From Acidobacteriota bacterium (GTDB lineage Bacteria; Acidobacteriota; UBA6911; RPQK01; G965218465), in contig OZ244623.1 of the NCBI GenBank assembly GCA_965218465.1, forward strand, positions 2,868,097 to 2,932,096: a stretch of 64,000 nt of DNA, given 5' to 3'. The notes under the pieces were generated by a model, which saw nothing but the letters and a program-made list of their open reading frames with translations, made no database searches and had not been told where the DNA came from. The position numbers and the translations under genes are program-made. Positions 15,871 to 36,314 of this stretch are shown piece after piece (position 1 is the first letter of the stretch; each line of letters begins with the position of its first letter).

Positions 15871-18048
<2,178 letters not shown>

Positions 18049-18587: not shown

Positions 18588-19346
18588 TCAGAACACTCCC
18601 GGGATGAGGGCGCGGCGGTTCGGCGGGTAGTCCGGGAAGCGTTCGCGATACCAGTGGTGATTGCTACGGGCCCTGGGGACCAGGTTGGCGGCCGTAAGGA
18701 CACAAAAAGCCAGCCCGCCGAGGGACCACGTGGCCATCGCCCAGCCCGTCCATTCCAGAATTTCGCCCAGGTAGTTCGGGCAGGAGACGTATCGGAAGGC
18801 TCCGCGATCCGGGACGACATGTCCTGTCCTTCCATGTTTTCGCAGGCTCAGCAGGATGTTGTCGCTGTGCATGTTCAGAAACATGCCACCGGCGAAAAAT
18901 GCCATCCCGATCAGGAAACACGGGCCGGACAACCATGAAACCCCGTACTCACCGAGGTGGGAGACAAAGCGGGCGTTGACGTAAGCGTTCAGTACATTGA
19001 AGAAGAACCCCGATCCAGCGACAACAAGTGGCATTCTTCGCTCGGTCCGGGTCCGGAACGGGTAGATGAGCGTCCGGTTCAGGTAGTGGCTTTGCCACAT
19101 CGCCAGGAACACCAGCGGGACGGGGTTCCACGCCGCGCTCCCCCGCAGATAGACGAACAGAAAGAGGAAGACGGCCGGGCATTCCATGCCGATCCAGCCC
19201 ACCCTGTTGGAGACGGTTGGCCCCCAACCGGAGCCTCGATAGTGGCGCCCGTAGGGTGCTGGTCTCCGGAGCAAGTACAGGAAGGTCGCGACGGCCGAGC
19301 CGAACATGGTCCAAACCAGCAGGCGGTAGATCTCGAGCTCCGTCAT
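18588..19346 (-). CDS. 3-oxo-5-alpha-steroid 4-dehydrogenase / DUF1295 (isoprenylcysteine carboxyl-methyltransferase-like) family membrane protein
   Basis: 252 aa, multi-TM. C-terminal block GHVVPDRGAFRYVSCPNYLGEILEWTGWA matches the conserved steroid 5-alpha-reductase C-terminal motif. Confidence 0.6.
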   Translation of the reverse strand: MTELEIYRLLVWTMFGSAVATFLYLLRRPAPYGRHYRGSGWGPTVSNRVGWIGMECPAVFLFLFVYLRGSAAWNPVPLVFLAMWQSHYLNRTLIYPFRTRTERRMPLVVAGSGFFFNVLNAYVNARFVSHLGEYGVSWLSGPCFLIGMAFFAGGMFLNMHSDNILLSLRKHGRTGHVVPDRGAFRYVSCPNYLGEILEWTGWAMATWSLGGLAFCVLTAANLVPRARSNHHWYRERFPDYPPNRRALIPGVF

Positions 19347-19420
19347 CTCAACCCTCCAGCATGCCTTGTTCCTCGAACCAGCGACCCCATTGCGATCCAG
19401 CAGTGTTCCAGCAAATTTCG

Positions 19421-19527
19421 ACTCAGCCGCTCACCTTGCTTGCCCCGCCCTCGGCCCACCACATGCCGGCAATGGTCCCAGCCCCGAAGATGGCAAAGGC
19501 GGCGATCTGGAGGTAGACGGTCCCTAC
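19421..19527. repeat. direct repeat DR1: displaced copy of the MFS transporter gene 3' end (att-like island boundary)
   Basis: 72-nt core 19438-19509 matches 34666-34737 with one mismatch. Flanks are partially similar over ~107 bp. The minus strand encodes ...LVGTVYLQIAAFAIFGAGTIAGMWWAEGGASKVSG*, compared with the intact MFS C-terminus ...GTMYAQIAAFAIFGAGTIAGMWWAEGGASAVQG*. Confidence 0.7.
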
Positions 19528-19939
19528 TAGGAGACGAATCGTCCACAGACTTGATCGAGGCGACCCTGGCGCAGATGGTCCAGAACAGGGTCGAGATGGC
19601 CTATGCCCGCTCGGATCTTCTTTGAGCGCCGACGTATGCTGATGGAGGACTGGGCCGGTGCCTCAAGGTGGGTCAAAATTGCTTGATCACGCCGGGTCAT
19701 TTTTCCTTTGTCATTACGAAGCCGCCCAGATCCGCTCCCAGTCACTGTTGCTACTCTCCGAGCTTGACGACTTGGCGCGGGCGGAGCGGGCGGCCAAGTC
19801 GCTTTTGCGCAGTAATGGTGAATAACTTACTCTTTGCCCCCCAACTTTGTTGTCCTATCTGTCAACTCACCAACCCTCCTGTCAAGTCCAGGGCATGGTC
19901 GGAGTTGGTGACATCCGCAGAAGAATCAAAGAAGAATGT

Positions 19940-20797
19940 TCAGTTTGCGGCGCTCCGCTCGGAGAGGAGCCTTTTATCGACGTCGACCAACCAATGCCGA
20001 CGCTTTTCCTGCGGGAGAGTTGTAAAGTGCCTAAGCGCAATCCCGTCGCGAATATCGCCGCAACATCTCACCTCTCCATCGGGAAGGATGGCGATATCGC
20101 CAGAATCATAGGCTGCGTGACAATACGCACACAGACATATCCCGTTTGCGGGATTTGCCCTCTGGCTTTTATCGGATGCATAGCTTCGGATATGGGCAGC
20201 ATCGAGCACGGACGGAAGTTGAGTTCCACAAACTAGGCAGGTGTACTCGTGGCGCGACAGGACTATGGCGCGGAACACGCGCATACGGCTGCGACGTCTC
20301 ACAAGGGACCATGCATCATCCACGTGCCAATCGGCCTCATTCATCTGGACCGCCGGGGCCTTCGCTTGAAAAGCGGAATCCAAAGCTGCGTCGAGGAGAC
20401 GAACAAACAGATCTCGTTCTAATTGAGGCATCGAAATCGACCAGCCGATACTGTTCAAGTCTTTCGGGAGTCCGATTGACAACCGATTATGTCTACCAGG
20501 CTTGGTGCGCGTCGAAAGATCAAATAGTTTCGGAAACCAAACAACGTCCGCAAGATGCGCCGTGAACAGTCGCGTGACCTTCGCGCTTCGCCGTTCTCCT
20601 TCATTGGCCGGCCGTTGCGTCACCTTCGACACGCGTCCAGCTCCGGCCAAACCATATTGCGGGCCACTTTTCTTGAGATAGATAAACTCGTCTCCAGCTT
20701 GTACTTTTACCGAATGAGTATTGTCATAGACATACTGTTTGCCGGGAATGTCGGGGTAACTGCTTTGATCTGAAACCTTGAATATCCAGTAGCTCAT
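19940..20797 (-). CDS. HNH endonuclease with N-terminal PUA/EVE-like putative modified-base reader domain (type IV restriction-like)
   Basis: C-terminal HNH motif (YTCLVCGTQLPSVLDAAHIRSYASDK...NGICLCAYCHAAYDSGDIAI). N-terminus MSYWIFKVSDQSSYPDIPGKQYVYD...GDEFIYLKK...GAGRVSKV resembles the YWLxK/GD..FYH/G.G.V layout of EVE/PUA-like domains, assigned tentatively. The start is 4 bp after the vsr stop. Confidence 0.6.
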   Translation of the reverse strand: MSYWIFKVSDQSSYPDIPGKQYVYDNTHSVKVQAGDEFIYLKKSGPQYGLAGAGRVSKVTQRPANEGERRSAKVTRLFTAHLADVVWFPKLFDLSTRTKPGRHNRLSIGLPKDLNSIGWSISMPQLERDLFVRLLDAALDSAFQAKAPAVQMNEADWHVDDAWSLVRRRSRMRVFRAIVLSRHEYTCLVCGTQLPSVLDAAHIRSYASDKSQRANPANGICLCAYCHAAYDSGDIAILPDGEVRCCGDIRDGIALRHFTTLPQEKRRHWLVDVDKRLLSERSAAN

Positions 20798-20801
20798 CGT
20801 C

Positions 20802-21224
20802 TCACCGGCGAGACTGTCCGGCCCGCTTTCTGACCACTTCTTCGATGCGGTCCACACAGGATTCCGCATCCCGCTCCACCTCATGCTCCCAGATGCGGAT
20901 GACTAACCATCCCTCCCGTCGGAGCTTATTGGAGGTTCGCCGATCCCTGTAGCGGTTGCCCTCGATCTTCTTCCTCCAATAGGGGTCGAGTTTGTGCCTC
21001 CACCGGGAGAACTGCCAACCGTGCCAGAAGTCGCCGTCGACGAATACCGCGACTTTCGCACGTACAAAAACGAGATCAGGCCGTCCTGGAAGTCCGTTCT
21101 TGTGTTTACGGAACCGTAGGCCGCGCGCATGCACAAACCTGCGAATCGTCAGTTCGGGAGTCGTGTCCTTGCTTCGGATGCGGGACATCGTGAAGCTGCG
21201 TTGTTCCGGCGTCAGGTTGTCCAC
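20802..21224 (-). CDS. vsr: very-short-patch repair endonuclease (T:G mismatch nicking, 5mC deamination repair)
   Basis: 140 aa with the Vsr signature KDTTPELTIRRFVHARGLRFRKH...LPGRPDLVF...KVAVFVDGDFWHGW. Confidence 0.8.
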   Translation of the reverse strand: MDNLTPEQRSFTMSRIRSKDTTPELTIRRFVHARGLRFRKHKNGLPGRPDLVFVRAKVAVFVDGDFWHGWQFSRWRHKLDPYWRKKIEGNRYRDRRTSNKLRREGWLVIRIWEHEVERDAESCVDRIEEVVRKRAGQSRR

Positions 21225-21248
21225 TATGCGTCTTCCAGAAACACGCCT

Positions 21249-22415
21249 CTAGCCAGCAGCATCGTCCTGCGGAAGTCTCCAAACGGCAGTCCATGCCTTG
21301 TCAACTCGGATCAACGGCGCGTCCCTGTCCGTCTTCATCTGCCGTCCATGGACTACGCGGACAGCGTCCCCGACGTCGGGCAGATCCATGTCGTCCATTC
21401 TCATCCATTTACTTGGAATCTGCTCGATTGAAACGCGTTGTCCAAACACTGTCCCGGCCTGCCTCGATAGGACCAAAGTCGTGAGCGAGACGCCCTGAAC
21501 CTGTCGGCTCTCTATCTCAGCAATGTTCCCCTCCACGTGTGATCCGCAGTCCGTAGCCCATTCGGGTTGCGCTTCAGTCCAGAATGGACCACAGAATGGC
21601 AGACATGGGCAAAACGAGCAATTGCCGGGAGACGGAGAGGCGAGATCTCGGAAGGAAGCTCCCTCGGAGACCGCGGCATTAAATCTACCAAGCTGTTTCT
21701 TCGCACAGTCGGCCTCGGCCTCGGCCTCGGCCGGCGAAATCGCGAATTCACAGCGCTGTCCGTCACCTCGTACAACCGCACCCGTGCTTACGTCTGTTCC
21801 GTTCTCTGCGGCAATATATGCGTACAGTCGAAGTTGGCGCGCCTCAGAATCGGACACAATACCCCCCTCGGCTTCAGACATATGCCCTGTTTTGTAATCT
21901 ACAACTACGCCGGCCCGGCCGTCGATATAGTCGGCCCGGCCGACGACCCGGCCATCCCTCGAACTAAGACGGGATTCCGTCCTCACTGCTGGAGAAGCTA
22001 ATCTCGCCGCTTCAGCGGCAGAACTGGCCGACGGCATTCGAGACAAAGCGATGGGAGTTGCCGTAAGTGCAGCCCGTTCGCGGTTCAGGTGGTAGAAGGG
22101 CAGGCGGTCCGCAGAGGGGAACTTCAACTTGACCAAGCGGTGGGCGCCCAGATGAAGTTTCTGCGCCGTCTTGTCGAACAGCCGCCTTGCCGGAGAGCGG
22201 TCGCTGACGGCTGCCACCGGGAGCTCCCCTCTATGCGCGGCCGCCACAACCACATGGAAAGCCGTTCCTAGGATCGCCGCCGGGTGCTGAGGCAGAACAC
22301 CGACATCCCCAAAAGCGAACCATGCCGCCTTGGCGAGGCAGTGTATGCTGGCTTCATAGATGCTCGGTGTAATGCGCTTGAGCTGAGCTAGAAGCGGCGG
22401 CTCCGGGACGATCAT
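21249..22415 (-). CDS. RecB-family PD-(D/E)xK nuclease with Cas4-like C-terminal Cys cluster
   Basis: Motifs GRADYIDGRAGVVVDYKTG (motif II/III, hhhDYKTG) and QLRLYAY (QxxxY). C-terminal CSFCPCLPFC is a putative Fe-S/Zn cluster as in Cas4/AddB nucleases. Confidence 0.65.
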   Translation of the reverse strand: MIVPEPPLLAQLKRITPSIYEASIHCLAKAAWFAFGDVGVLPQHPAAILGTAFHVVVAAAHRGELPVAAVSDRSPARRLFDKTAQKLHLGAHRLVKLKFPSADRLPFYHLNRERAALTATPIALSRMPSASSAAEAARLASPAVRTESRLSSRDGRVVGRADYIDGRAGVVVDYKTGHMSEAEGGIVSDSEARQLRLYAYIAAENGTDVSTGAVVRGDGQRCEFAISPAEAEAEADCAKKQLGRFNAAVSEGASFRDLASPSPGNCSFCPCLPFCGPFWTEAQPEWATDCGSHVEGNIAEIESRQVQGVSLTTLVLSRQAGTVFGQRVSIEQIPSKWMRMDDMDLPDVGDAVRVVHGRQMKTDRDAPLIRVDKAWTAVWRLPQDDAAG

Positions 22416-22430
22416 GCTGTCATCAACTCC

Positions 22431-25400
22431 TCATTCATAAGGAAACCGAACAGCACGAAATACTGACCGCAGAGTCACGCTAAAGCCCTGCCCTTGCGCG
22501 TCTGAAACGGCGGCGGCCACCTCCGGGCGGAAGTTGGACGAATCCGTGTCCCAAAGCGGGTGGGTCAGGATAATGGCTTCATTGTTGAATGGATCAACTC
22601 CTCCGGACAATGCATCGAAGGTCCTCGTCTTCATTTGGAGGCCCTCGAAATAGGTCGGAGCAATACGGGCGACAAGATCGGACCAGTGGCTTGTGGTGAG
22701 ATCAATACGGGCGTTAGGATCAAGGGCCAGTTGCGCCATGTCGAGCCCCAACCTCCAGTCGAGTATTGGGTGAAAGGCCATGTTTCCGAATTCACGAAGA
22801 CAGCGGTGGCAAGAATTGACACAGTCATGGCTGTGCGGCGGCGTCACGAGCAGTCGATGAAACGAGTCGGGTGGAGTGCTCCGCGTCCAGGAGGGGCGCG
22901 CCTGCCCTAGGACAAACCGGAGGAGTTCTTCGAAGCGGACGGAGTCTCCTAGGAACGTGCTGTATCCAGCTCCGTTTTCCAGGTTGTCGGAGATGAAGAT
23001 GCGGGCGGTCGGTGGCGCGAACGGCGTGGAGAGGTCGGCAATAGGCTGGATTCCGAGGTCGAGTTCAGAATCATTTACGTCGAGGCTGACTGCGGCGGCC
23101 CGCCGGACAAGGAATCCGAAGGAATACCATGCGGCCTTCGCCTCCGGCTTGGATGGATTCAGGCAGAGTCCCACTGAGACAACGTTGATTCCGGCAGCCA
23201 TGACATCCGTATTGGATATGGCGCCAAGAGCACGCCGGACTCCGGGCGTCGCCGAATCGAACGACGGCCGTTGAATCCGTCCCCGCTCGGCGGCAGGAAG
23301 GTCGCGAAGAGCACTATCGAACGCTTCCTCAACCATCCAGAAATTTTGATTCGCTAGCTTTCGGAATTCGAAGTCGCTCCCATCGTTGTCGTTGATGCGG
23401 TAGATTCTGGCGGAGCCGCTGTCGATGCTGAAGTTTCTGTGAGTCCTGTAGTTGTCCAGCCCAGCCCCCATGCGGGCCCTCAAGGCCCTGGGCGTGAATT
23501 GGAAGCCACCCCGAAACTCGGCGCGGTCGGATATCGTCCACCAAGTGCTGAATCCAGGAGGTTCGGTCAATTCCGCTAGTCGATAGCCGTCCGGTCCGTG
23601 CGCGGCCGAACAATATGGGCACCTACCCGACTGCTCAGGCTGGGTAACCAGGGCCTGGCATCGACGGCATACGCCAACAATCTCTGACTCTCCGAGTGGA
23701 TTCGGCGCCAGGGCGACGCCCCCCATATCGGGGACGAATTCAACCACTCCGACGGCCGTGTGAAGCTTGTCGTCTTTGATTGACTGTGCACCAGGCGCAA
23801 ACTGGCTGATGGCGATGTCAAGTTCGCGGTCGATAATCCCGTACTGAGGAGGCCAGCGGATTGGTTGCTTATGATGCAGGAGGCGCGTTCGCGTCGGGAA
23901 GCCAAACATTGGAAGTACACCGTGGGAGGCCAAACGTTCGCTAAGCGCATGATGCGTGTTGCTGCTGCCGGCGATTTCATCGATCCGGTCGAGCAACTCC
24001 GTTTTGACGTACTGGGTGATGCTCGTAACGCCAGCCGTGTTGTCCATTGCAGTTCGACGCAGAATGTGGTGTCCGATGTCCTCGATAAATAGTCCGTTGA
24101 CAGCAATCCAGTCTGAGACGGTCTGTCGATAACCGGACCACTTCCCGACGGTTCCAAACTCTCCATGAACATTCTCGCCTGAGTGCTCGATCTCGATGCC
24201 TTCAAACGAATGCCGAAGTACTTCTTTGTTGACGACTCGCTGCGCGATTTCCGGCCGCGAAACATCCACATACGGGCGAGGTGGCGGCTCAGCTGTAATT
24301 AGATGAGGCCGTTCAAAATAATAGTCATCGTGGCTGCGGCCCCGGCAGAGCGTCAATGCTGCTGACATTCCAAGACCCCTCCGTCCGGCACGTCCGACCC
24401 TCTGCTGGTAGTTGAAACGGATGGGGGGCATGTTCGCCATGCCGATCATCTGCAGCGATCCGATGTCTACGCCCGCCTCCATGGTTGTAGTGACGCTGAG
24501 GAGGTCCACTCCGAAGGCCTTTTCAAGTTCTCGATCAAGGAAGATCTCCTGGAACCATCTCTGTCGGTCGATGCGGTCGTCACGGTCCGTCTGTCCAGTG
24601 AGTTCCTCGCAGTTGAGGCGAAACGGATCGTCGTTGCATCGAGCCAGGTATTCATAGAAGTCCATTTCGCTGGCGTCCGAAGCCGTGGGATGGCGATGCG
24701 GCGCGTTCGGAAGCCGATTCCGGCAGACCGTACAAATACCGCCGGACGCATGCAGGTGGACGGAACCGCATCTTTGGCAAGAGAAGACATCGATGCACAC
24801 GTCCGTTCCAGGGACGGGGGTCAACACGTAAAGGCGTTGCGGGACAACCAGCCATTGATCCACGGCGTCGCTCAACAGAGTTAGGATGTCCTCCAGCAAT
24901 GTAGCTGCGTCGAGCCCATTGAGATCGGCGACGGCCTGAGCGTACCGGCGGATGTCTCGGGGCGCTTGAAGTCTGCCGTCCGACGCCGGAGTCCAACGGA
25001 ATCTCTTTGCTAGCATTCTGACTATGGAAGCCGCCGCGCACTCCTGCACAGTAGCTGGCCCCGAGTCATTGATCCAAAGGAGCCCAAGCCTCAGCGACTC
25101 GAAGTCACGGCTTCCCCCTGCGAAGAGAACGTCGTTTATGACGGAGCGCAACAACTCGGCTTCAATTCGATCCCGCAACTCCTGCTCAACCGGCTGAAGG
25201 TCCAGCCGATATCTGTGCTGCTCCACGTTCCAGTCGAAGATGTCCGTCCAAGGGATCGTCGTTGTCTGCCACTTATACTCCCTTACGCCTGGCAATGGCC
25301 CACCCGGATTTATCCCGATTCGTAGGAGCGACTCTCGCACGAAATCCACAAGGGCGTTGAACGACATGCTGCCGAAGCCGGTAGGCGGCGAGGGGCGTTG

Positions 25401-27962: not shown

Positions 27963-27978
27963 GGGTCTATTTCACTCG

Positions 27979-28875
27979 TTAGGGCAGGACGGTAACTCCA
28001 GGGTGCGGTTGACCGGCGGCGACCATCAGCAGAGCGGCCACTTCGGGGGTTACATCGAAGTAGACAAACCGTCCGTCAATTAATTGCGCAGGACGGCACG
28101 CACAGAGACATGCGGCTCGGGAATATAGTGCTGGCATCGGTGCGAACAACGGCACACTCAACTCCAGGGAATGAGGCTCGTAATCAATCAGACGAACCCC
28201 CTTCAGCATGGCAGCCGCATAGAGGGACTCCCGCTTGGGCATCCTCAACAGCTTCCCGCTTCTTCTGCGAACGTAGTATTGGGGTCGGCCGTAGGTGGGC
28301 GTAAACTCACACGCCGCATTCGGCAAAAGTCCGTCGACCCACGCGCGTATGCCAAGGTCGAAGAACCGGGCCTTCCAGTTTAACGGGGCTGGTTCCTGAG
28401 CCGCGGCCTCGAATACGCATGGAATGGGAGGAACGTTTTCCGCAATTCGTCTCCCGTTATCAGGTTGATAAGCCACTCCAATGTGGCTGGAGATTTCGGC
28501 AATCACCCGCCTTTCACCAACGACACGGAAGGATGTCGGACAGTCCTTGAGGGCTTCCTCTTGGAGCTTGCCTCCATGCACTTTAGCCCCGTTCCTTAGC
28601 GCCTCGACAAGAGCAGGAGTGCGTCTTCCATAAAGGACGGCAGCATCCGCCTGGGCGGCAAGGCCTCCAAGGACGGGCGGCAGCATGTTCCACCGCTGAG
28701 AACCATCTACAAAAAAATCGGTGAAGCCGAGATCCGACAAACCAACTCTCAGTGCGCGGGACAACTCCAGCGGATCACGATCTCCACTTACAATCTCCTC
28801 AGCCGCCTTTCGAAACCTTATCCATGACCCCTCTCCCAAGTGGGTCATCCATGTCAGTAACAGATCGCAGTTCAT
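27979..28875 (-). CDS. hypothetical protein (positionally DruG-like)
   Basis: 298 aa with no recognisable motif. Its start overlaps the upstream gene's stop by ATGA (translational coupling). A 17-bp gap separates it from the helicase gene. Confidence 0.5.
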   Translation of the reverse strand: MNCDLLLTWMTHLGEGSWIRFRKAAEEIVSGDRDPLELSRALRVGLSDLGFTDFFVDGSQRWNMLPPVLGGLAAQADAAVLYGRRTPALVEALRNGAKVHGGKLQEEALKDCPTSFRVVGERRVIAEISSHIGVAYQPDNGRRIAENVPPIPCVFEAAAQEPAPLNWKARFFDLGIRAWVDGLLPNAACEFTPTYGRPQYYVRRRSGKLLRMPKRESLYAAAMLKGVRLIDYEPHSLELSVPLFAPMPALYSRAACLCACRPAQLIDGRFVYFDVTPEVAALLMVAAGQPHPGVTVLP

Positions 28876-31800
28876 TGGGGCTTCTTGAGTTTCCGCTTTA
28901 TGTTCTTCGCCAATGCGGCGTATTTCTTCCAGCCGTCAACGATGCCTTCATCGGGGACAGCCCCGTTCAGTCCAACGAAGCGCGGGCGGCGGATGTGCGC
29001 CTCGTAAACGACGGTGCTCCACTGCTCGATTAGCTTCCGAGTTTGCACCGTTAGCCTGCGAAGGGTGAGCATTCGTGGTGGACTTGGATAGGAAGCAACC
29101 GCGACCACCGCGCCAGGGCCTGCACCCACTCGGATGGCCCAACTGGGATGGAATGGACATGACGCGATAGTTCCCTGGAAAAACTCTTCGTCTGAGTAGC
29201 AGACCTGGTCCGGCGAGTTGCCTATCAAGGTCCATGAGCCATGCGGCAAGGCAATCCTTCTGCTACGGTCAGCATCGAGCGATTCATGAAGTTCAGTCTG
29301 GCTCTGGACAGACAGTTGCGGCCGTTCTATTGCAATTCTCCTTCGCATGCTACCCGCCTCGACGAGATATTCGCCGGGCTCAGAGAAGACCCCTTCCGCC
29401 AGCAACTCACCGCTCGCATCAACTCCCACCGATGCGCCGTTCACCTTTATACGGTCTCGTGCCTCCATGCCGGACACTAGGATTCGCGGCGGGGCTCCCG
29501 TGAGCCATGACCAGCGGCGTCCTAGCCGCAGGCCACCCGCAACGATCAATTTAATTTTTCGATCGACTTCCAACGCCTCAAGAGTAGCGGGCGCTTCGAC
29601 ATGGACGCGTGCCGAAACATCGCGGAACATGGACCAACCGTTCGGCAGCAGTGGGTGTGATACCGGGCTCAGCAAGCCTTGCGCAACTTCGCTCAGGTAG
29701 TCTTTCACTATGGGGACAATGTTGTCGCAGCATAGAACGGAGCACCTGACACCACGCAGCAGGCGTCGGCTCGATAGAAAACCGCTGTAGCTTGATGACG
29801 GTGTGAAAGGAATGGCCAACGCCCCAGAGCGCCTCAGCGTAAAGTCGATGCCTCTTGCATGCGACAACCACTCGAAGCCGCTTTCCAAAAGTTCTCCATC
29901 CTCCGAACGGAGTTGCGCGGGGTCGTACCACCCTTCGTCTGATGCCTCGAACACCCGCTTCCCGTCCCCGAACACTTTAGGAAATCCGGGAGGCCGCCGA
30001 GGCAAGTAGAAGAAAACCGGGCTCCTCTGGACAACATCGAACTGAATCTCGACCAGTGCGCTACGCCTGCTGGGCGACTCGCAAAAGCTTCCGTCCCATG
30101 CTTCCAATTCAGCACTCGCTTGGGCAGAAATGGCGGCGGAGCGGTCGTCATAAAGGGCACTCGTAGCGGTTGGCGTAAGCATGTTCCGTGACTGTTGCCA
30201 CCGCCTCAAATCGGAGAGCAGGCGGTCATGCCGGACCCGGGCTCCAGGCTGGTATCCCGCCCAAGAAAAGAACACCGGGAGCTTCTCGATGTCCAAGGAC
30301 CGAAGCGGAACGTGCGTCAACGGCAACGCAACGAACCGCCTGAACCCCGTGTCGCTTTTCGGCATCGCAAGCTGGCGCCTATGTGCTTTACGAAGCCAAG
30401 TGTGCAGGAACACCCAAAGCGACTCGAACACCGCTGGATTAAATCCGGGAGGGTGTGCTCCGTGCATTTCACACTTGAGGAGGTCCGCCAAGCGCCTGTA
30501 GTAGGCGTTTCCCGACAACTCTTCGTCGGACTGCATGCGAAATGCAGCAAGGACCGAACCTGCGAGGAAGGCCGCGCAGTCAGGGGAGCCGTCGGCACTG
30601 CATCGACGCAGCACACGAAGCCGCGCGCTGTGTTGAAGAACATGCCCCTGATAAAGGTTCGCAACCGCTGTTGTGAACTGCTGCTCTGCCTGCTCAGGCG
30701 TTATTGGACCCAAGCCGGCCTCCTCGAACACTCTCGCCAATATGCGGGGGTTGACGCACAAGAGAGCTTCTTCTGAGGATGGGCCCGCAAGCAGCAATTG
30801 CTCGACAACAGCGGTGTTCCAGCGGGCATACTCATGGTCGACCGCGGAAACGTCCTGGACCGCCACTAGATATTCATGTGCATCCTCTGGAAGTGTTAGC
30901 TGACGTGGAGATGGATCTCTCCAGTCATCGGCGGTCGCCCACACGTCTTCTTCTGTCGGTTTCTGGGGCTCTTCTTCGGCCTGCGGACGATCCATACATC
31001 CCGACTCCGATTTGCCCACACCCACTGAGGTGGTCCTGTGCGCCTCCGGCGACGCATCTCGTCCGCATCGGTTCTCGTTTAGTAGACTTGCTGGGCTTGT
31101 GGACAAAGTACCGGCGGATGCGTCTTCCGCAGTCCGCTCACCAGCGTTTGGAGAGGATATGGTGGTTATTCCCTTGTGTTGGACATCAAGGGGCGGATGA
31201 GGATCGGAGCGAGGAGCCACCTCATCTATTTGAGACGTGTCCTCGTGGACAGATCTGTGGTCCACACCGCTGTCGCCTGCACCTGCGACTTCTGGGCGTG
31301 CCGAATCGTCCCCGTCCTCGTTCCCATTGGTCATTCTGCCTTCTCGGACAGTACACGGCGTGGCCGCTTCATGACCAGTTTCGACGTTTCTCGGCGGTTC
31401 CTCAGCCGACGACTCGTCGACTCCCATTTGTACTGGGTAGCGCGTTGGATCGTGTTCCATTGCCTCATCGACCGAGACGATTTCTTCGCCGAAGCCTCCT
31501 TCAGAGCTAGGTCCAGATTCAGAGCCGGGGTTCGCGTCTCGTATCGGCTGCTTCTCCTGCACCAATGGCTTCGGAGTTTCTGTTGCGACGGTTTCAGAAT
31601 CCGTTTCTCCTTCGGTAACGCTCCCAACCTGAATGGGTTTAACAGACTCTTCAACCTGGGATTCCTCAAGCGTATTAGTCGATCCTGCCTCGATCGGTTG
31701 ATCGCTCAACTGGTCACCGCTCCCGTCATCGGTTGACGCTAGCGCGGATTGGTGGACGCCGGGTTGGTCTTTGTCAGGCGTCAGTGATGCTTCAGAAGCG

Positions 31801-31919
31801 AGTCCGAACCGAGACAACACGGAGAGTAACGCCTTCAATATTTGTGCGGTGATCCGTCCCAAGTCAGAGTTCCAGCAGGAATTCGCCGATTGCCTTCGAC
31901 ACAAGCGGACACACCGCAT
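28872..31919 (-). CDS. large hypothetical protein with ~330-aa acidic low-complexity N-terminal region and ~680-aa C-terminal globular domain (positionally DruF-like)
   Basis: 1015-aa ORF. N-terminal third is D/E/S/T/P-rich (…EESQVEESVKPIQVGSVTEGETDSETVATETPKPLVQEK…). A more likely start is GTG at 31820, because the ORF's first 56 bp overlap the methyltransferase gene. The stop overlaps the next gene's ATG. Confidence 0.5.
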   Translation of the reverse strand: MRCVRLCRRQSANSCWNSDLGRITAQILKALLSVLSRFGLASEASLTPDKDQPGVHQSALASTDDGSGDQLSDQPIEAGSTNTLEESQVEESVKPIQVGSVTEGETDSETVATETPKPLVQEKQPIRDANPGSESGPSSEGGFGEEIVSVDEAMEHDPTRYPVQMGVDESSAEEPPRNVETGHEAATPCTVREGRMTNGNEDGDDSARPEVAGAGDSGVDHRSVHEDTSQIDEVAPRSDPHPPLDVQHKGITTISSPNAGERTAEDASAGTLSTSPASLLNENRCGRDASPEAHRTTSVGVGKSESGCMDRPQAEEEPQKPTEEDVWATADDWRDPSPRQLTLPEDAHEYLVAVQDVSAVDHEYARWNTAVVEQLLLAGPSSEEALLCVNPRILARVFEEAGLGPITPEQAEQQFTTAVANLYQGHVLQHSARLRVLRRCSADGSPDCAAFLAGSVLAAFRMQSDEELSGNAYYRRLADLLKCEMHGAHPPGFNPAVFESLWVFLHTWLRKAHRRQLAMPKSDTGFRRFVALPLTHVPLRSLDIEKLPVFFSWAGYQPGARVRHDRLLSDLRRWQQSRNMLTPTATSALYDDRSAAISAQASAELEAWDGSFCESPSRRSALVEIQFDVVQRSPVFFYLPRRPPGFPKVFGDGKRVFEASDEGWYDPAQLRSEDGELLESGFEWLSHARGIDFTLRRSGALAIPFTPSSSYSGFLSSRRLLRGVRCSVLCCDNIVPIVKDYLSEVAQGLLSPVSHPLLPNGWSMFRDVSARVHVEAPATLEALEVDRKIKLIVAGGLRLGRRWSWLTGAPPRILVSGMEARDRIKVNGASVGVDASGELLAEGVFSEPGEYLVEAGSMRRRIAIERPQLSVQSQTELHESLDADRSRRIALPHGSWTLIGNSPDQVCYSDEEFFQGTIASCPFHPSWAIRVGAGPGAVVAVASYPSPPRMLTLRRLTVQTRKLIEQWSTVVYEAHIRRPRFVGLNGAVPDEGIVDGWKKYAALAKNIKRKLKKPQ

Positions 31920-33969
31920 TGGCCAGTTGCTGCTGCTTGTGCATCAAACCGCCGGATTGACCGTCCACGGTGCCCGCAAACCGAAACCAGTCGGGGAACG
32001 ATTGAAGCCGGCTTGCCTCACGCAGCGATAGCCCACGATTCTGCTCCGGATGAATGAGCATGCTTTTCCGATAGTGGCCGATCGTAATAGACGGCTCGTC
32101 CCATTCCAACCGTCGATAGATGTTGCTGTGGGTCCGCTTCACCTGCGAGTAGTTCGACATCATTTCCACTATGTCCTGCCAATTCCCCCCGGCAGGGATT
32201 CGTTTGTAGCGTTCGATAACATAATCGGTATGGCGTGACGTGATGTGGTCTAGAATATTTGTCTTGGGTGCGCTGTTACGCATCAGCGTTAGAAATTTAT
32301 TGCCCTCCCCTGTCGCAGGTTCACAATAGTCAATTTCATCCAAACCATGACCGTTGCCGATTGGTGGCAAATCGCCAATCGCCCCGCGGACCGTTACGAA
32401 CGAACGTCCTGCAAGGGGACCGTGGGTGGGGGTCGGAAAAGGGCCCCAGTCACCAAAGTCGTCCACGGAATAGCCAGCGTCCCTATGGATTCCCAGAACA
32501 AAAAAGCGCGTTCGGAATTGGGGCACACCGTACCAGACTGCATCCAACAGCTTTGGAAAAGTCATGTACCCAGCCAATTTCATCCGCTCAACAATGTGTT
32601 CCGCAACACTGGGCTGGATTTCTGACTTGCCGTTCCTTGCAGTCCATGCAATTCCCTGCACATTCTCAATCAAAAACACCGAAGGATTCAATTTCTCGAC
32701 ATATCTCATGAAAACGGTGACCATTTGATTCTGCGGATTAGTGCTCGACCACGAATTGCGGTTTGCACTAGAGAACCCTTGGCAGGGTGGACCTCCAACA
32801 AGAATGTCGACACCCCCCGCCTCAATCGCCTTGGATGCGACCAGTTCTAGTATCTTTCGGTCGTTAAGGTCGAACGGTTCAATGGACTCTGGAACGAAAT
32901 CACGCCACTTTGATTTTTGCATTCCAACTAGGCAGCTATGAGTATTTCTGAGGGTTTGAATGTAGATCGGATGAAGTTCCCCTGCGAAAACAAGCCGAAA
33001 CCGCCTCTTGGGATGTTTAGACATTAAGAATCCGAGTCCCATTCCCCCAGCGCCAGCAAAAAGCTCTACGACGTTGAGCACATTCGCTCCGGCGAACTTC
33101 GCACCACGGGGCCTACTTTCCGAACAGACAGTGTTCGAATCGCCTTCCGAAGATTTGTCCTGAAGCCTTGCGAGAGTAATGTTTGATCGATATCGCAACA
33201 TTAGGCCGGGCCCGTTATTCAGGGCTTCTCCTTCGTGCGACAGGCTTGGAGGCTTGCGCAAATTTCTTTCTTGTCGTCGGACGAGGGGCCTAATCCATCG
33301 GACCCAACCAATGTATCGGACAAGATCTTCAAGTGGAGTAGCGCGCAGCGAAGTCAGTCCGATAATCGTTCCTGGATGCAGTCCTACAATGCCGCCTGTC
33401 TGAGCCACAAACAGGCGTGCCGTTGTGTCGTCCGGCAAACATACTTTCGCTAGATCAGCTACCGAAAATCGCATGGAAGATGTTCCGTTGCCCGGAGCAA
33501 CCTCCACATCCCGCCACACCGCACCCCCTAACGTATCTGCCGCTCTTTGTTTGACCCACTTTCCGCGTTGTGCACACTCAACTTCGTGACTTGGTCGGAT
33601 TTCAAGGATAAAGTCTAGTCTCTTTTCAACCAGAGACTTGATGAACGAAAAACTGCTACCATAGGAGGCCCCTGCAACAATAACCGGGTCCCCTCCTAGT
33701 CTATTGCACCTGCTGAGCAATCCGAGTGCTACCGTTTGCTTGTATTCCTTTGTTCCCGTCTCCGCCTGCCGTCGCGCCACCTGTGCCTTACCGTAGACTT
33801 TCTTCCATTTGCCTTCGACGATCTTGTGCACACGAACTGTGACCGACGGATCGCCTTGGCCGCGCTGTAGTCCCAGAATTGGGCGTCGGTTTGATCTCGC
33901 ACTGTCGTCTTCTACCAGCAAGATGATGCCCAAGTTGGTTTGCGTCAAAAGGGGCCTTACATTCGACAT
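31864..33969 (-). CDS. DNA (cytosine-5)-methyltransferase with ~290-aa N-terminal extra domain (DruM-like / Dcm-like)
   Basis: C-terminal ~410 aa carry motif I LFAGAGGMGLGF, motif IV ILVGGPPCQGFSSANR, motif VI FLIENVQG, and motif IX/X region (ASRLQSFPDWFRF, QLANAVCP). The N-terminal domain (…GGDPVIVAGASYGSSFSFIKSLVEKRLDFILEIRPSHEV…) is unassigned. Confidence 0.8.
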   Translation of the reverse strand: MSNVRPLLTQTNLGIILLVEDDSARSNRRPILGLQRGQGDPSVTVRVHKIVEGKWKKVYGKAQVARRQAETGTKEYKQTVALGLLSRCNRLGGDPVIVAGASYGSSFSFIKSLVEKRLDFILEIRPSHEVECAQRGKWVKQRAADTLGGAVWRDVEVAPGNGTSSMRFSVADLAKVCLPDDTTARLFVAQTGGIVGLHPGTIIGLTSLRATPLEDLVRYIGWVRWIRPLVRRQERNLRKPPSLSHEGEALNNGPGLMLRYRSNITLARLQDKSSEGDSNTVCSESRPRGAKFAGANVLNVVELFAGAGGMGLGFLMSKHPKRRFRLVFAGELHPIYIQTLRNTHSCLVGMQKSKWRDFVPESIEPFDLNDRKILELVASKAIEAGGVDILVGGPPCQGFSSANRNSWSSTNPQNQMVTVFMRYVEKLNPSVFLIENVQGIAWTARNGKSEIQPSVAEHIVERMKLAGYMTFPKLLDAVWYGVPQFRTRFFVLGIHRDAGYSVDDFGDWGPFPTPTHGPLAGRSFVTVRGAIGDLPPIGNGHGLDEIDYCEPATGEGNKFLTLMRNSAPKTNILDHITSRHTDYVIERYKRIPAGGNWQDIVEMMSNYSQVKRTHSNIYRRLEWDEPSITIGHYRKSMLIHPEQNRGLSLREASRLQSFPDWFRFAGTVDGQSGGLMHKQQQLANAVCPLVSKAIGEFLLEL

Positions 33970-34244
33970 CTAGAGCAGCACCGGTTTGCGAGGATCGAGG
34001 ATATGAAGGTCTGCATGCCCACAAAACGTGGCAAGATCCATATTTTTCAATTATATCTCTGTGGTCGGGGTTTCTCCAGCACTTGAGGGCTGGCGCCGAG
34101 AACGCAGTGATGGTTCGATCCGCAGGCTGCAACATTCCGTCCAACTTGGTGGTCGCATGGCGGAGCATCTCGCGGGAGTAGCGGTGACGGCCCGGTACAA
34201 CACTGGGTCCCGTAGGCCCACAATCGTCCAACCCAGCTGCAATG

Positions 34245-34607
34245 TCAACCGATCGTAATGATCAGCGTATCCGTCTCAACGGCACCTTGGTGGAGAGAAA
34301 TTCGACGGCTGGTGTTCGGCCCGGTTGCACGTTGCCGTCTGCGCCAGTACACCGTGCGCTTCTCGATATAGTCCCGTCGGAGGAATAGACAGGCCTCCCA
34401 ATAGCAAATCAGCAGATTGATTGAGAAAAACAGACTAAACAGACAATGGATGACGTTGAGGTCCCGGTAGACGTAGTAACGAGTGCCAATGCCGAGAAGC
34501 GCCAGAAGTGCGGCCACCAGCGCCGCAAGCAGTCCGGCCGGCATCCCTGAACTGTTCTTGCGTGCACTTAGGTCCGGAGCTATTCGATCGGGGTTGTACT
34601 TACCCAT
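34245..34607 (-). CDS. hypothetical small membrane protein
   Basis: 120 aa with two hydrophobic segments (AGLLAALVAALLALLGIG; CLFSLFFSINLLICYW). Sits between the methyltransferase and the island boundary. Confidence 0.3.
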   Translation of the reverse strand: MGKYNPDRIAPDLSARKNSSGMPAGLLAALVAALLALLGIGTRYYVYRDLNVIHCLFSLFFSINLLICYWEACLFLRRDYIEKRTVYWRRRQRATGPNTSRRISLHQGAVETDTLIITIG

Positions 34608-34648
34608 GGCTTGTGATCCTCGTTGAAATTCTAACCTTGCCGGCTACC

Positions 34649-34755
34649 ACTCAGCCTTGCACCGCGCTTGCCCCGCCCTCGGCCCACCACATGCCGGCAA
34701 TGGTTCCAGCCCCGAAGATGGCAAAGGCGGCGATCTGAGCGTACATGGTCCCGTC
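34649..34755. repeat. direct repeat DR2: 3' end of intact MFS gene (gene-proximal att-like island boundary)
   Basis: Partner of DR1. 72-nt core 34666-34737 matches 19438-19509 with one mismatch. Confidence 0.7.
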
Positions 34756-35970
34756 GAAGCTTTGTCCCACCACCGCGCCCAGCGGCACCGAGATGAAGAG
34801 GGAGAGCGAAGCGACCACGGCGGCCCCCACCCCCGCGATATGGCCGAGAGGCTCCATCGCGAGCGCATTGAGATTGCCGAAGAGGAGCCCAGTGCCGAGG
34901 AAGACGACGAAAAGGTAGGCCATGAAGAGCCAGAAGGGAGGAAGCCCTTGGAAGGCAAAAGCCAGCGCCCAGGCGACAACCGAGACCAGGGTGACGGACA
35001 CCGCCGCCGCCTTTGAGAGCCGGCGCATCCCATACTTGATCACCAGGCGGCTGTTCACGAGCGAGGCGCACCCGACGGGGAGGGAGAGAACTCCGAACCA
35101 GAGCGGGAACAGCGCCCCGGTCCGATAGCCCTCCTGGAAGATTTGCTGGGCCGAGCTGAGGTAGGCGATGAAGGGTGCGAATACGCATGCGATGGCGAAC
35201 ATGTAGCCTACCGCGGTCCGGATTCTCAGCACTTCCAGGACGGTCCGGCCGATGGCCCGTGGGGAGAAGGGACGCCGGTGGGCGGCGGGCAGGGTTTCCG
35301 GCTGGCGAAACGCAAACCACCCCAATGCGATCGCGGCGATGGCGACGAAGGTCGCGAATATCGAGCGCCAGCCTCCCAACTGGAGGATCCCCTGGCCGAG
35401 GGCCGGGCCGACGGTGGGAACGAGCATGAAGATGGCCACCACAAAGGACATCAGACGAGCCATTTGGCGGCCCTGGTACTGATCGCGCACCATGGCCAGG
35501 GTCACGATGCGCGGTCCCGCGACCCCGATTCCCTGCAACACACGGCCCGCGATCATCACCTCGAAGGTGGGTGCGAAGATGCTCACCAGACAACCGGCCA
35601 TGAACAGGAGGAGGCCGGCATGCATGGCAGCCTTGCGTCCGACGCGATCGGAGAGCGGGCCGATGAGCATTTGGCCCAGCCCAAGTCCCACCAGCAGAGC
35701 CGTGATGACGAACTGGACGTCGTTCCGGCGCAGCACGCCGAACTCGCGGCCGATCGCGGGCAGCGCCGGCAACATCGTGTCGATCGCGAGCGCCACCAGC
35801 GACATCAGCAGGGCGGCGAGGGGAACGAATTCGCCGGGACGAAGGGCAGGCCCAGCCGCCGTCCAGCTCGTCCTCCCCCCCTGTGCGCCATCATGGCGTT
35901 CTTGGCCGTCAGCCTGATCGTCCGTCCCCGGTACTTGAAGTCCGCCGCGCGGCGGTAAGTGTTGGGTCAT
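34651..35970 (-). CDS. MFS transporter, Bcr/CflA-type drug:H+ antiporter family
   Basis: 12-TM protein with …DTMLPALPAIGREFG… and GPLSDRVGRK (the MFS motif between TM2 and TM3). The N-terminal ~55 aa of the ORF may be over-extended. Confidence 0.75.
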   Translation of the reverse strand: MTQHLPPRGGLQVPGTDDQADGQERHDGAQGGRTSWTAAGPALRPGEFVPLAALLMSLVALAIDTMLPALPAIGREFGVLRRNDVQFVITALLVGLGLGQMLIGPLSDRVGRKAAMHAGLLLFMAGCLVSIFAPTFEVMIAGRVLQGIGVAGPRIVTLAMVRDQYQGRQMARLMSFVVAIFMLVPTVGPALGQGILQLGGWRSIFATFVAIAAIALGWFAFRQPETLPAAHRRPFSPRAIGRTVLEVLRIRTAVGYMFAIACVFAPFIAYLSSAQQIFQEGYRTGALFPLWFGVLSLPVGCASLVNSRLVIKYGMRRLSKAAAVSVTLVSVVAWALAFAFQGLPPFWLFMAYLFVVFLGTGLLFGNLNALAMEPLGHIAGVGAAVVASLSLFISVPLGAVVGQSFDGTMYAQIAAFAIFGAGTIAGMWWAEGGASAVQG

Positions 35971-36314
35971 GCCGTGATGTTACCGATGGAGAGTTCGCTT
36001 GCAAGTTCTTCTTGAGGGGCCACAGCGACATGTCCTTTTTCGGTTGAGCACGTTTGGTGTGCCGGTCGTAGCGTCTCCGTCCAGGTCGACGACCCCGCGG
36101 CAACAGAGCCACCCCGCGGTTGGTCATGATCGGCACATCCCTCAGCCCCCGGCCTGATGGATGACCTCATGGCTTTAGTGGAACCGATGGGGCGCAGGAG
36201 AAACCTCTAAGCGGCTGAGTCATTCTAATCAAATACTTACAGTCGCTTTGGTGAGGGCGACGACGTCAATGGCAAAGAGTGCGAGAAGTCCGGCAGGGGG
36301 AGCGGACTCCCGGC

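What the first reader, a model, noticed from the sequence alone, without database searches (positions are those of the whole stretch)
19421..34755. ~15.3-kb defence island inserted at the 3' end of an MFS transporter gene, bounded by ~105-bp direct repeats, with no integrase inside
Positions 19438-19509 and 34666-34737 are 71/72 identical, with weaker similarity extending ~15-20 bp each side. The distal copy (19421-19527) encodes on the minus strand a C-terminal MFS fragment (...QIAAFAIFGAGTIAGMWWAEGGAS...) that duplicates the real C-terminus of the intact MFS gene at 34651-35970. This is the classic attL/attR signature of an element that integrates into a gene's 3' end and reconstitutes it. 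Everything in between is non-housekeeping: a 7-gene defence operon plus one small membrane ORF. No tyrosine/serine recombinase is present between the repeats, so the element may be immobilised or mobilised in trans. The cargo runs from just past the distal repeat (HNH gene, 19940) to the methyltransferase (33969).
Basis: seen in the sequence. Interest (0 to 1): 0.8.

Follow-up and report, generated by a model that had tools for sequence, protein, structure and literature searches.

The report
Decayed integrase island carrying Druantia defence
A 15-kb block of anti-phage defence genes was spliced into the tail end of a transporter gene by a site-specific integrase. That integrase has since been almost completely deleted, so this is a well-documented but ordinary example of how defence islands arrive and get stuck.

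Summary
Positions 19438-19509 and 34666-34737 are 71/72 identical, inside a 104-nt direct repeat, and the distal copy is a 35-codon duplicate of the MFS C-terminus.

Contigs of the same species at 98-99% identity carry the empty site, MFS-77 nt-steroid reductase-KatG. The two window junctions are reciprocal hybrids of native and foreign sequence. This is therefore a real 15.2-kb insertion by recombination within the core.

The cargo is a conserved 7-gene cassette: C5-methyltransferase, DruF, DruL, DruE, DruK nuclease, Vsr and HNH. It matches Druantia type IV with additions, and it recurs at 82-90% nt identity in other contexts.

- An integrase is not wholly absent. A frameshifted remnant of about 46 codons, the C-terminus of a P4-like tyrosine integrase including the catalytic Tyr, abuts the distal repeat at 19527-19686 (+).
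- The "small membrane ORF" is a truncated, frameshifted fragment of a 236-aa gene.

Other strains carry different cargo at the same site, all diverging at the same nucleotide.

Verdict: an immobilised, CIME-like integrative defence island at a strain-variable att hotspot. It is a new member of a known kind and of modest interest.

The parts
19421..19524 (-). Distal direct repeat (attR-type hybrid). It comprises the element-derived 15 nt (19510-19524), the 72-nt core (19438-19509), and the native MFS tail KVSG plus stop (19423-19437), which continues into the native intergenic sequence.
   Evidence: Downstream of the core it matches empty-site contigs L079/L080/L081 apart from a few scattered strain substitutions. 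Upstream of the core it does not match them.
19527..19686 (+). Remnant of a P4-like tyrosine integrase gene (about 46 C-terminal codons). It has one frameshift near 19618-19622 and a LAH->LAQ change, and the catalytic Tyr motif (VEMAYARSDL) is retained. About 350 5' codons are missing, and the remnant abuts the repeat.
   Evidence: Translation is. tblastn against plasmids hits the C-termini of annotated integrases with E down to 3e-4. It aligns to the extreme C-terminus of integrases carrying Arm-DNA-bind_3 / Phage_int_M / Phage_integrase domains. It is 16/26 identical to the intact integrase of the related Dru island L089.
19930..34071 (-). Conserved 14.1-kb defence cassette (seven co-directional, tightly packed genes) that recurs in other genomic contexts.
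   Evidence: It is 90% nt identical to L085 over window 30800-19930, where L085 position 1 is the 10-kb flank cut, and the match ends 10 nt past the HNH stop. It is 82-85% identical to L089/L090/L091, starting 100 nt upstream of the methyltransferase gene.
19940..20797 (-). HNH endonuclease (285 aa from the internal ATG; the ORF extends to 20884).
   Evidence: Pfam HNH_2 E 2e-11; PADLOC HNH E 4e-18; homologues are 285 aa.
20802..21224 (-). Vsr very-short-patch-repair endonuclease, the usual companion of a C5 cytosine methyltransferase.
   Evidence: Pfam Vsr E 3e-28; PADLOC Vsr.
21249..22415 (-). DruK, a PD-(D/E)XK / Cas4-like nuclease.
   Evidence: PADLOC DruK E 2e-22; Pfam PDDEXK_1 E 5e-14.
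22431..27962 (-). DruE, the large DEAD/Helicase_C helicase (1843 aa).
   Evidence: PADLOC DruE4 E 0, 1779 bits, full length. Pfam DEAD, Helicase_C and a weak MZB match.
27979..28875 (-). DruL (298 aa).
   Evidence: PADLOC DruL4 E 1.6e-20. It also matches the C-terminal third of type II DruF profiles.
28872..31919 (-). DruF-like protein (1015 aa). Residues ~353-788 match DruF profiles. The N-terminal ~350 aa is an acidic, low-complexity extension.
   Evidence: PADLOC DruF2 E 1.7e-36 and DruF4 E 1.4e-22; sequence.
31864..33969 (-). C5 cytosine DNA methyltransferase (701 aa) with a conserved ~290-aa N-terminal domain that weakly resembles DDE_5.
   Evidence: Pfam DNA_methylase E 8e-44; PADLOC MTase_II and DruM2 E 1e-58. 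The full-length architecture is shared by more than 700 homologues.
34268..34616 (-). Pseudogene fragment: codons ~1-105 of a ~236-aa membrane-protein gene, with a frameshift near 34320-34327 and truncated at ~34268.
   Evidence: tblastn with the 236-aa and 256-aa proteins of L015 and L039 gives 76-85% aa identity in two frames. It is 79% nt identical to L015. There are no Pfam or PADLOC hits.
34649..34752 (-). Proximal direct repeat (attL-type hybrid). It comprises the native MFS sequence, the 72-nt core (34666-34737), and the element-derived tail AVQG plus stop (34651-34665).
34651..35970 (-). Target gene: an MFS transporter (439 aa) whose last four codons are supplied by the element.
   Evidence: Pfam MFS_1. 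Tail variants KVSG (empty site) and AVQG (occupied site) are seen.
18588..19346 (-). Native right-hand neighbour: a steroid 5-alpha-reductase family gene, adjacent to MFS in empty-site strains.
   Evidence: Pfam Steroid_dh E 2e-49; gene order in L079-L081.

Best explanation
Window 19511-34648 (unit length 15,228 nt) is a decayed integrative genomic island. An element carrying a P4-like tyrosine integrase had an attP that mimics about 105 nt of the MFS gene's 3' end. It recombined with the chromosomal MFS 3' end (attB) inside a 72-nt common core. The crossover most likely lies in the 39 nt between the single core mismatch and the end of the core. The element's own tail (AVQG*) now completes the MFS gene. 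The native tail (KVSG*) was displaced 15.2 kb away, next to the steroid-reductase gene. Later a deletion removed the attP arm and about 350 codons of the integrase, leaving a frameshifted C-terminal stub against the distal repeat. The island is therefore now fixed in place, in a CIME-like state: att cores are retained and the recombinase is lost. Its cargo is a modular 7-gene defence cassette on one strand: C5 methyltransferase, DruF, DruL, DruE helicase, DruK nuclease, Vsr and HNH. This is Druantia type IV plus a methylation/repair pair and two nucleases. The inferred roles are as follows. The methyltransferase marks self DNA. Vsr repairs the T:G mismatches caused by 5mC deamination. The DruE helicase complex, with the nucleases, acts on invading DNA. 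Shown here: the insertion, the hybrid junctions, the empty site, the integrase remnant, the cassette's identity and its recurrence elsewhere. Inferred: that the integrase catalysed the event, the order of decay, and the defence mechanism.
For: The repeat is real. Empty-site contigs of the same species are 98-99% identical on both sides, and the two aligned blocks overlap by 90 nt, which is one repeat copy. The junctions are reciprocal native/foreign hybrids. The integrase remnant abuts the distal repeat and aligns to the extreme C-terminus of P4-like integrases, including the catalytic Tyr. A related Dru island (L089) carries an intact 413-aa integrase of the same family, 16/26 identical to the remnant. 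Other strains of the same population have a type I R-M island (L095), an Mrr+NOV_C island, or a 455-nt replacement (L092-94) at the same place. All sequenced variants diverge at the same nucleotide, directly after ...GAGGGCGGGGCAA. They carry distinct MFS-like tails: KVSG, AVQG, ANVGSG and ASRHTSQTILG. Composition is foreign: GC3 0.55-0.70 against 0.72-0.81. Cargo assignments come from PADLOC and Pfam. The cassette recurs at 82-90% nt identity in other contexts. There is precedent for immobilised Druantia-bearing MGEs that retain integrase fragments (PMC12458937), and CIME is defined in PMC5704250.
Against: No intact cognate integrase was found in the window or next to any MFS 3' end among the loci recovered, so catalysis by this integrase family at this att is inferred and not shown. 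The remnant is only about 46 codons long, the best database E-values are 3e-4 to 5e-4, and Pfam's Phage_integrase model does not score it. In L089 the integrase sits at the other end of the cassette in the opposite relative orientation, and that element does not target an MFS gene, so the two backbones differ. The identity block (72 nt) is much longer than the 16-20-nt repeats typical of tRNA-targeting islands. The element's proximal end also carries a stray chromosomal gene fragment. Both features would equally suit a homology-driven event. Excision and the circular form were not testable.
Confidence: 0.75

Rival explanations
1. This is a RecA-dependent Campbell-type or homology-facilitated insertion. 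A circularised piece of foreign chromosome happened to carry a ~105-nt MFS 3' segment, because this MFS gene is shared horizontally among many co-resident bacteria. It integrated by a single homologous crossover within the 72-nt identical stretch, which duplicated the homology. The integrase stub is an unrelated passenger relic.
For: MFS homologues at 65-78% aa identity occur in MAGs labelled as many different phyla and in unrelated contexts, so portable homology exists. The element's proximal end reads like captured chromosome: an MFS-like tail, 44 nt, then the 5' part of a 236-aa gene that lies 3 kb downstream of MFS in Gemmatimonadota loci L015 and L039. The identity block is long enough for RecA. 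In L001 and L081 the duplicated MFS 3' segments are longer (249 nt to about 1.1 kb) and include downstream intergenic DNA, which looks more like homology-based duplication than a short att core.
Against: An integrase remnant sits exactly at the att boundary. Four independent structural variants break at the same nucleotide. The element-side flanks are only 70-75% similar to the native sequence while a 39-nt block is perfect, which is the pattern expected of a maintained att core. None of the 78 MFS loci from other species has Dru genes within 10 kb or this kind of short hybrid repeat.
Confidence: 0.12
2. The island is not dead. It is a cis- or trans-mobilisable element that is still moved by the integrase of related elements using the same att site in the same population. 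Movement could occur through accretion with an incoming element or through an integrase supplied in trans.
For: Both att cores are intact at 71/72. The same site holds at least three other cargo variants in co-occurring strains of one metagenome, which implies ongoing traffic. CIME mobilisation by accretion is documented in streptococci (PMC5704250).
Against: The arm between the core and the integrase is deleted down to 15 nt from the core, and tyrosine integrases of the P4/lambda type normally need arm sites. No intact integrase of this family was seen in any same-species contig recovered. Only one contig carrying the AVQG tail is on record.
Confidence: 0.15
3. This is an assembly artefact or a local segmental duplication, with no mobile element involved.
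For: The window comes from a metagenome-type assembly with several co-existing strains.
Against: Misassembly at a 72-nt repeat would not leave and then re-enter the same locus with reciprocal hybrid junctions. The cargo has a different composition and exists as a cassette elsewhere. An MFS protein with the AVQG tail is independently on record on a 3.42-Mb contig.
Confidence: 0.02

Closest known systems
[quoted passage not shown]
   Same: In both cases a YprA/DruE-type defence system is the cargo of an integrase-delivered element bounded by direct repeats. One repeat lies in the 3' end of the target gene. Elements become immobilised and keep only integrase fragments or pseudogenes. Successive waves of insertion at one site build a hypervariable defence island.
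   Different: Here the target is the 3' end of a protein-coding MFS gene and not a tRNA. The identity block is 72-104 nt rather than 16-20 nt. The cargo is a type IV-like Druantia with methyltransferase, Vsr and HNH, not type III. No excisionase, Rep or 'moron' module is left. The host is an uncultured bacterium known only from metagenome assemblies.
CIME (cis-mobilisable elements) of streptococci, such as those at the 3' end of fda (definition in PMC5704250; the fda example is from my own knowledge)
   Same: The element is flanked by attL and attR in the 3' end of a protein-coding gene and has lost its recombination module. It sits at a site used by related elements, so tandem accretion is possible.
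   Different: CIMEs are defined as decayed ICEs or IMEs. No conjugation or mobilisation genes, or relics of them, are visible here, and cis-mobilisation is untested.
Druantia type IV (PADLOC, PMC8565338) and Druantia type II (Doron et al. 2018, from my own knowledge)
   Same: DruE, DruF and DruL are all present, with best matches to the type IV profiles DruE4 and DruL4. DruL corresponds to the C-terminal third of type II DruF.
   Different: Type IV was defined as lacking DruM, but a DruM-like C5 methyltransferase with an extra N-terminal domain heads this operon. DruK, Vsr and HNH are appended. No DruG was found, so it is not type II.
P4-like (arm-type) tyrosine integrase islands such as CP4-57 at ssrA (from my own knowledge)
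   Same: The integrase family is the same: the C-terminal motif ...VE.AY.R.DLFE.RR.LM..WA matches. The integrase gene lies next to an att site with its 5' end facing it. The 3' end of the target gene is duplicated.
   Different: The integrase is reduced to a stub. It lies next to the displaced native 3' fragment and not next to the reconstituted gene. The target is not an RNA gene.

Membership tests
Integrase-type integrative genomic island | Direct repeats (attL/attR) bound the element, with one repeat inside the target gene | tested here: met
   A 104-nt repeat with a 71/72 core; the proximal copy forms the end of the MFS gene.
Integrase-type integrative genomic island | An empty site with a single repeat copy exists in close relatives | tested here: met
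   L079, L080 and L081 are 98-99% identical on both flanks and have MFS-77 nt-steroid reductase. The aligned blocks overlap by 90 nt.
Integrase-type integrative genomic island | Junctions are reciprocal hybrids of attB and attP flanks | tested here: met
   Alignment A2: the proximal copy is native-core-foreign and the distal copy is foreign-core-native.
Integrase-type integrative genomic island | A site-specific recombinase gene is encoded next to an att site | tested here: inconclusive
   Only a frameshifted C-terminal remnant of about 46 codons from a P4-like tyrosine integrase is present at 19527-19686. No intact recombinase is in the window.
Integrase-type integrative genomic island | Excision to a circular form with attP, regenerating attB | not testable with these tools
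   This needs raw reads or an experiment. Exact and degenerate core searches in JGI metagenomes, and an exact-core search in IMG/VR, found nothing.
CIME (cis-mobilisable element) | [quoted passage not shown] | tested here: met
   The cores are intact, the integrase is reduced to a stub, and none of the island ORFs scanned matched a transfer function.
CIME (cis-mobilisable element) | Derived from an ICE or IME, and mobilisable in cis by accretion with a related element | not testable with these tools
   No relaxase, oriT or T4SS relics were seen. Other cargo variants at the same att make accretion plausible but do not show it.
Druantia type IV (PADLOC) | DruE, DruF and DruL are co-localised | tested here: met
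   DruE4 E 0; DruF2/DruF4 E 1.7e-36 / 1.4e-22; DruL4 E 1.6e-20; the genes are adjacent on one strand.
Druantia type IV (PADLOC) | Lacks DruM and DruG (PMC8565338) | tested here: not met
   A C5 methyltransferase matching DruM2 profiles (E 1.4e-58) heads the operon. No DruG was found. The best description is type IV-like with a methyltransferase.
Druantia type II | DruM, DruF, DruG and DruE are all present | tested here: not met
   No protein matches a DruG profile. DruF is split into DruF plus DruL.
Druantia (any type) | Confers phage resistance | not testable with these tools

The most novel reading that the evidence does not exclude
The conserved 3' end of this horizontally spread MFS gene may serve as a portable landing pad (attB) for a family of integrase-borne defence islands. 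These islands would swap whole cassettes (Druantia, type I R-M, Mrr/NOV_C) and pile up in tandem. On this reading even the steroid-reductase-KatG block lies between two MFS-3' copies in strain L081. The element-borne MFS-like tails and the Gemmatimonadota-like gene fragment would then record passage through hosts of other phyla in the same, probably sponge-associated, community. That would amount to cross-phylum traffic of defence islands targeted to a shared accessory gene.
Probability: 0.2. Interest if true: 0.55.

Novelty: new member of a known kind. Interest (0 to 1): 0.3.

Why it matters
This is a clean, base-resolved example, from an uncultured bacterium, of the current model for how defence islands form. 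A site-specific element delivers a modular defence cassette to a fixed att site, loses its integrase, and is kept. Sister strains in the same sample hold different cassettes at the same nucleotide. It also documents a recurrent 7-gene Druantia variant (type IV core plus C5 methyltransferase, Vsr, PD-(D/E)XK nuclease and HNH) that moves as a unit between different mobile backbones. That gives a defined construct to clone for mechanism studies of the poorly understood type II/IV Druantia systems. It does not reveal a new kind of element or mechanism.

Tried and rejected
1. A second MFS paralogue at the distal repeat is rejected. MFS similarity starts abruptly at 19524. The tblastn extension to 19662 is about 20% identity outside the repeat and overlaps the integrase stub on the other strand.

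2. An intact integrase elsewhere in the window was not found. Pfam scans of 20 of the larger ORFs outside the island found only an IS66 fragment.

3. The N-terminal DDE_5-like domain of the methyltransferase as a transposase that moved the island is rejected. The 700-aa architecture is conserved full-length in more than 700 homologues, so it is a domain of the enzyme. There are no terminal inverted repeats.

4. HNH-driven homing does not explain the reciprocal hybrid repeats. The HNH gene is part of the conserved cassette and also occurs alone beside IS elements.

5. Looking for the same island or att use next to MFS homologues in 78 other species found no Dru genes within 10 kb and no P4-like integrase adjacent to an MFS 3' end. 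Only L001 has a duplicated 3' end, around a VapBC-like pair.

6. Exact and degenerate searches for the core in JGI metagenomes, and an exact search in IMG/VR, gave 0 hits.

7. DNA of the 3.17-3.19-Mb contigs, including the Mrr/NOV_C variant, could not be fetched; only gene lists were returned.

8. Exact look-ups of the window's MFS, KatG and DruE proteins found nothing.

9. The host taxon is unresolved. After the 99% same-species hit, the best DAHP-synthase hits are 72-73% and unnamed; the best named ones are Acidobacteriota at 71% and Planctomycetota at 66-69%.

10. There are no tRNA genes in the window or in the related islands.

11. No inverted repeat was detected in the core by the repeat finder.
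Full report
**Observation.** A register-fixed comparison gives 71/72 identity between 19438-19509 and 34666-34737, with the one mismatch at 19477/34705. Partial similarity flanks the core on both sides. The repeat finder reports a 104-nt direct repeat, 19421-19524 / 34649-34752, at 89% identity and 15,228 nt spacing. On the minus strand the distal copy reads ...GTVYLQIAAFAIFGAGTIAGMWWAEGGASKVSG*. Its similarity to MFS genes starts abruptly at 19524, so it is a fragment of about 35 codons and not a paralogue.

**Insertion test.** Exact-protein look-ups with the flanking SNF-family transporter and steroid-reductase proteins recovered contigs of the same species. These align to the window at 98-99% nt identity on both sides of the island. 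In L079, L080 and L081 the order is SNF-MFS-(77 nt)-steroid reductase-KatG. The two window blocks, 15764-19510 and 34649-44573, overlap by 90 nt in L079, which is one copy of the repeat. The multiple alignment shows reciprocal hybrids:
- The proximal copy equals the empty site up to the end of the core, then carries a different tail (GCGGTGCAAGGCTGA, AVQG*).
- The distal copy has a foreign 15 nt before the core (GGGACCGTCTACCTC against native GGCACCATGTACGCC), then continues after the core as the native tail (KVSG*) and native intergenic sequence.

The only internal mismatch (GGG distal, GGA proximal and empty) places the crossover in the last 39 nt of the core. Island genes have GC3 of 0.55-0.70 against 0.72-0.81 for MFS, KatG, the steroid reductase and SNF. 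This is a true insertion by recombination within a shared core.

**Integrase.** No intact recombinase lies between the repeats or elsewhere among the window ORFs scanned. However, the + strand directly inside the distal repeat (19527-19686) reads GDESSTDLIEATLAQMVQNRVEMAYARSDL, then after a 1-nt frameshift FFERRRMLMEDWAGAS. The evidence that this is an integrase relic is as follows:
- tblastn of this peptide against 7.3 Gb of plasmids returns about 20 hits with E down to 3e-4. Wherever a feature is annotated under the match, it is a tyrosine integrase in every listed case but one ('hypothetical protein').
- It aligns to the last ~45 residues of proteins with the Arm-DNA-bind_3 / Phage_int_M / Phage_integrase architecture. 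The match covers the Tyr nucleophile and the DLFEKRRxLMxxWA tail; the conserved LAH is LAQ here.
- A related Dru island from another metagenome (L089) encodes an intact 413-aa integrase of this family, 16/26 identical to the stub.

About 350 codons and the adjoining att arm are missing, and the stub is fused to the MFS-like 15 nt. I infer an in-place deletion that immobilised the element. Pfam's own model does not score the stub, so this rests on BLAST and alignment evidence.

**Cargo.** Seven co-directional genes are separated by at most 24 nt or overlap:
- a 701-aa C5 methyltransferase (Pfam DNA_methylase E 8e-44; PADLOC DruM2 E 1e-58);
- a DruF-like protein (E 1.7e-36) with a ~350-aa acidic N-terminal extension;
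- DruL (DruL4, E 1.6e-20);
- DruE (DruE4, E 0, full length);
- DruK, a PD-(D/E)XK nuclease (E 2e-22);
- Vsr (Pfam E 3e-28);
- an HNH_2 endonuclease.

PADLOC defined Druantia type IV as DruE+DruF+DruL without DruM or DruG (PMC8565338). This locus has that core plus a DruM-like methyltransferase, so it is best described as type IV-like and does not meet the strict definition of either type II or type IV.

The cassette is a unit. Window 19930-30800 is 90% nt identical to the part of L085 that was held, which is cut at the 10-kb flank; that contig comes from a different organism in the same sample. The match ends 10 nt past the HNH stop, after which L085 continues into DDE transposases. From 100 nt upstream of the methyltransferase gene the window is 82-85% identical to L089-L091. 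The segments outside 19930-34071 are backbone debris: the integrase stub at one end, and at the other a fragment of a ~236-aa membrane-protein gene.

**A multiply used site.** Members of the 90%-identity MFS cluster show four C-terminal tails within this species: KVSG, AVQG (on a 3.42-Mb contig that also carries the window's exact SNF and steroid-reductase proteins), ASRHTSQTILG and ANVGSG. There are also free-standing 88-95-aa C-terminal fragments and one split MFS. Contexts differ accordingly:
- L095 has a type I R-M island (HsdR, HsdS) directly after MFS.
- One 3.17-Mb contig has Mrr and NOV_C between MFS and KatG (gene list only).
- L092-94 have 455 nt of unrelated DNA in place of the tail, the steroid reductase and the KatG leader.

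All sequenced variants diverge at the same point, just after ...GAGGGCGGGGCAA. The foreign tails are themselves MFS-like. This points to a family of elements with homologous attP sites and fits site-specific recombination better than random homologous exchange.

In L081 a further 249-nt MFS 3' copy lies just beyond KatG, at the border of a second variable region. This hints that the whole MFS-to-cytochrome interval is a tandem accretion of islands. In the window that second region (6730-12572 and 13411-15763, absent from L079) holds a GmrSD/HEC-05 nuclease and a PDC-S31 candidate, among others.

**Mechanism and rivals.**
- Best-supported explanation (confidence 0.75): tyrosine-integrase-mediated integration into attB in the MFS 3' end, reconstitution of the gene by the element's tail, then decay of the integrase. 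The result is a CIME-like immobile defence island.
- Main rival (0.12): a RecA-dependent Campbell insertion using the MFS-like segment as portable homology. It draws support from the long identity block, the captured gene fragment, the cross-phylum spread of this MFS gene, and the longer duplications in L001 and L081. The integrase stub at the att boundary and the shared breakpoint argue against it.
- Continuing mobilisation by related elements (0.15) is not excluded.
- An assembly artefact (0.02) is very unlikely.

**Comparison with the known.** The closest description is the model in PMC12458937. There, Druantia/ARMADA/Zorya islands are delivered by integrase-bearing MGEs into tRNA genes, are bounded by direct repeats, and become immobilised with integrase fragments or pseudogenes left behind. 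Successive waves build hypervariable islands. CIMEs (PMC5704250) are the formal name for att-flanked elements that have lost their recombination genes. The differences here are the protein-coding target, the unusually long core, the particular cassette and the uncultured host.

I therefore rate this a new member of a known kind, with interest 0.3. The most novel reading not excluded is that the MFS 3' end acts as a portable, cross-phylum landing pad with tandem accretion. I give that reading about 0.2.

Noticed in passing
window 6730-12572 and 13411-15763: A second strain-variable region lies on the other side of KatG and is absent from the 99%-identical contig L079. It holds a GmrSD/HEC-05 nuclease (7249-9024, PADLOC E 2.5e-222), a PDC-S31/DUF2971 protein (13753-14706), a DUF6615 protein (10274-11332) and an IS66 transposase fragment (6384-7079). 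Sister contigs carry other cargo here, for example HEPN_Swt1 and DUF5343 in L081.
   Followed up: partly
L081 7180-7428: In an 'empty-site' strain, a third 249-nt copy of the MFS 3' end (85-89% identity, tail SAGRE*, including ~45 nt of MFS-downstream sequence) sits 113 nt after KatG at the border of the second variable region. The steroid-reductase-KatG block therefore lies between two MFS-3' copies, which suggests tandem accretion of islands.
   Followed up: partly
L001-L078 (genome-contig loci): MFS homologues at 65-78% aa identity occur in MAGs labelled Longimicrobiales/Gemmatimonadota, Acidobacteriota, Binatia, Alpha- and Gammaproteobacteria and Thermodesulfobacteriota. From the bin names, I infer that many are sponge-symbiont bins. 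Their contexts are unrelated: tblastn with KatG, the steroid reductase and the nearest upstream gene (SNF) found none of them conserved, apart from a partial SNF match 10 kb away in L052. The transporter gene itself looks horizontally spread.
   Followed up: partly
L001 10626-14076: In a Longimicrobiales chromosome, the 3' part of the MFS homologue plus ~450 nt downstream is duplicated (84-95% identity across blocks, with an internal deletion) around a VapBC-like PIN toxin/antitoxin pair.
   Followed up: partly
window 33100-33969 (N-terminal ~290 aa of the methyltransferase): An extra N-terminal domain gives a weak Pfam DDE_5 match (E 0.004). The whole 700-aa architecture is conserved full-length in more than 700 homologues, many with precomputed PF13546 hits. 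It is a domain of unknown role in this methyltransferase family.
   Followed up: partly
L086, L087, L088: The HNH gene alone (about 930-1,055 nt, 85-90% identical to the window copy) occurs without the Dru genes in other contigs of the same and related samples. In L086 and L087 it is flanked by DDE transposases, so it also travels separately from the cassette. One homologue is named 'HNH endonuclease/EVE domain' by JGI.
   Followed up: no
window 58969-61577: CRISPR-Cas type I-U/I-G effector genes are present: Cas7g (GSU0053/Csb1) and Cas5-6g (GSU0054/Csb2).
   Followed up: no
proteins P0200 + P0202 (3.34-Mb contig of the same species): In another strain the MFS gene is called as two ORFs (189 aa and 224 aa) broken at ...AIALG|WFAF.... 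This implies an insertion or frameshift inside the target gene.
   Followed up: no
window 30870-31919 (N-terminal ~350 aa of the DruF-like protein): There is a long acidic, low-complexity N-terminal extension with no family match. The ORF overlaps the methyltransferase gene by 56 nt, so the true start may be further downstream.
   Followed up: no
L095 ~11180-11195: The type I R-M variant has a 12-nt in-frame insertion (GAGGGGATTGAT, adding RGLI) inside the otherwise conserved att core of its MFS gene.
   Followed up: no
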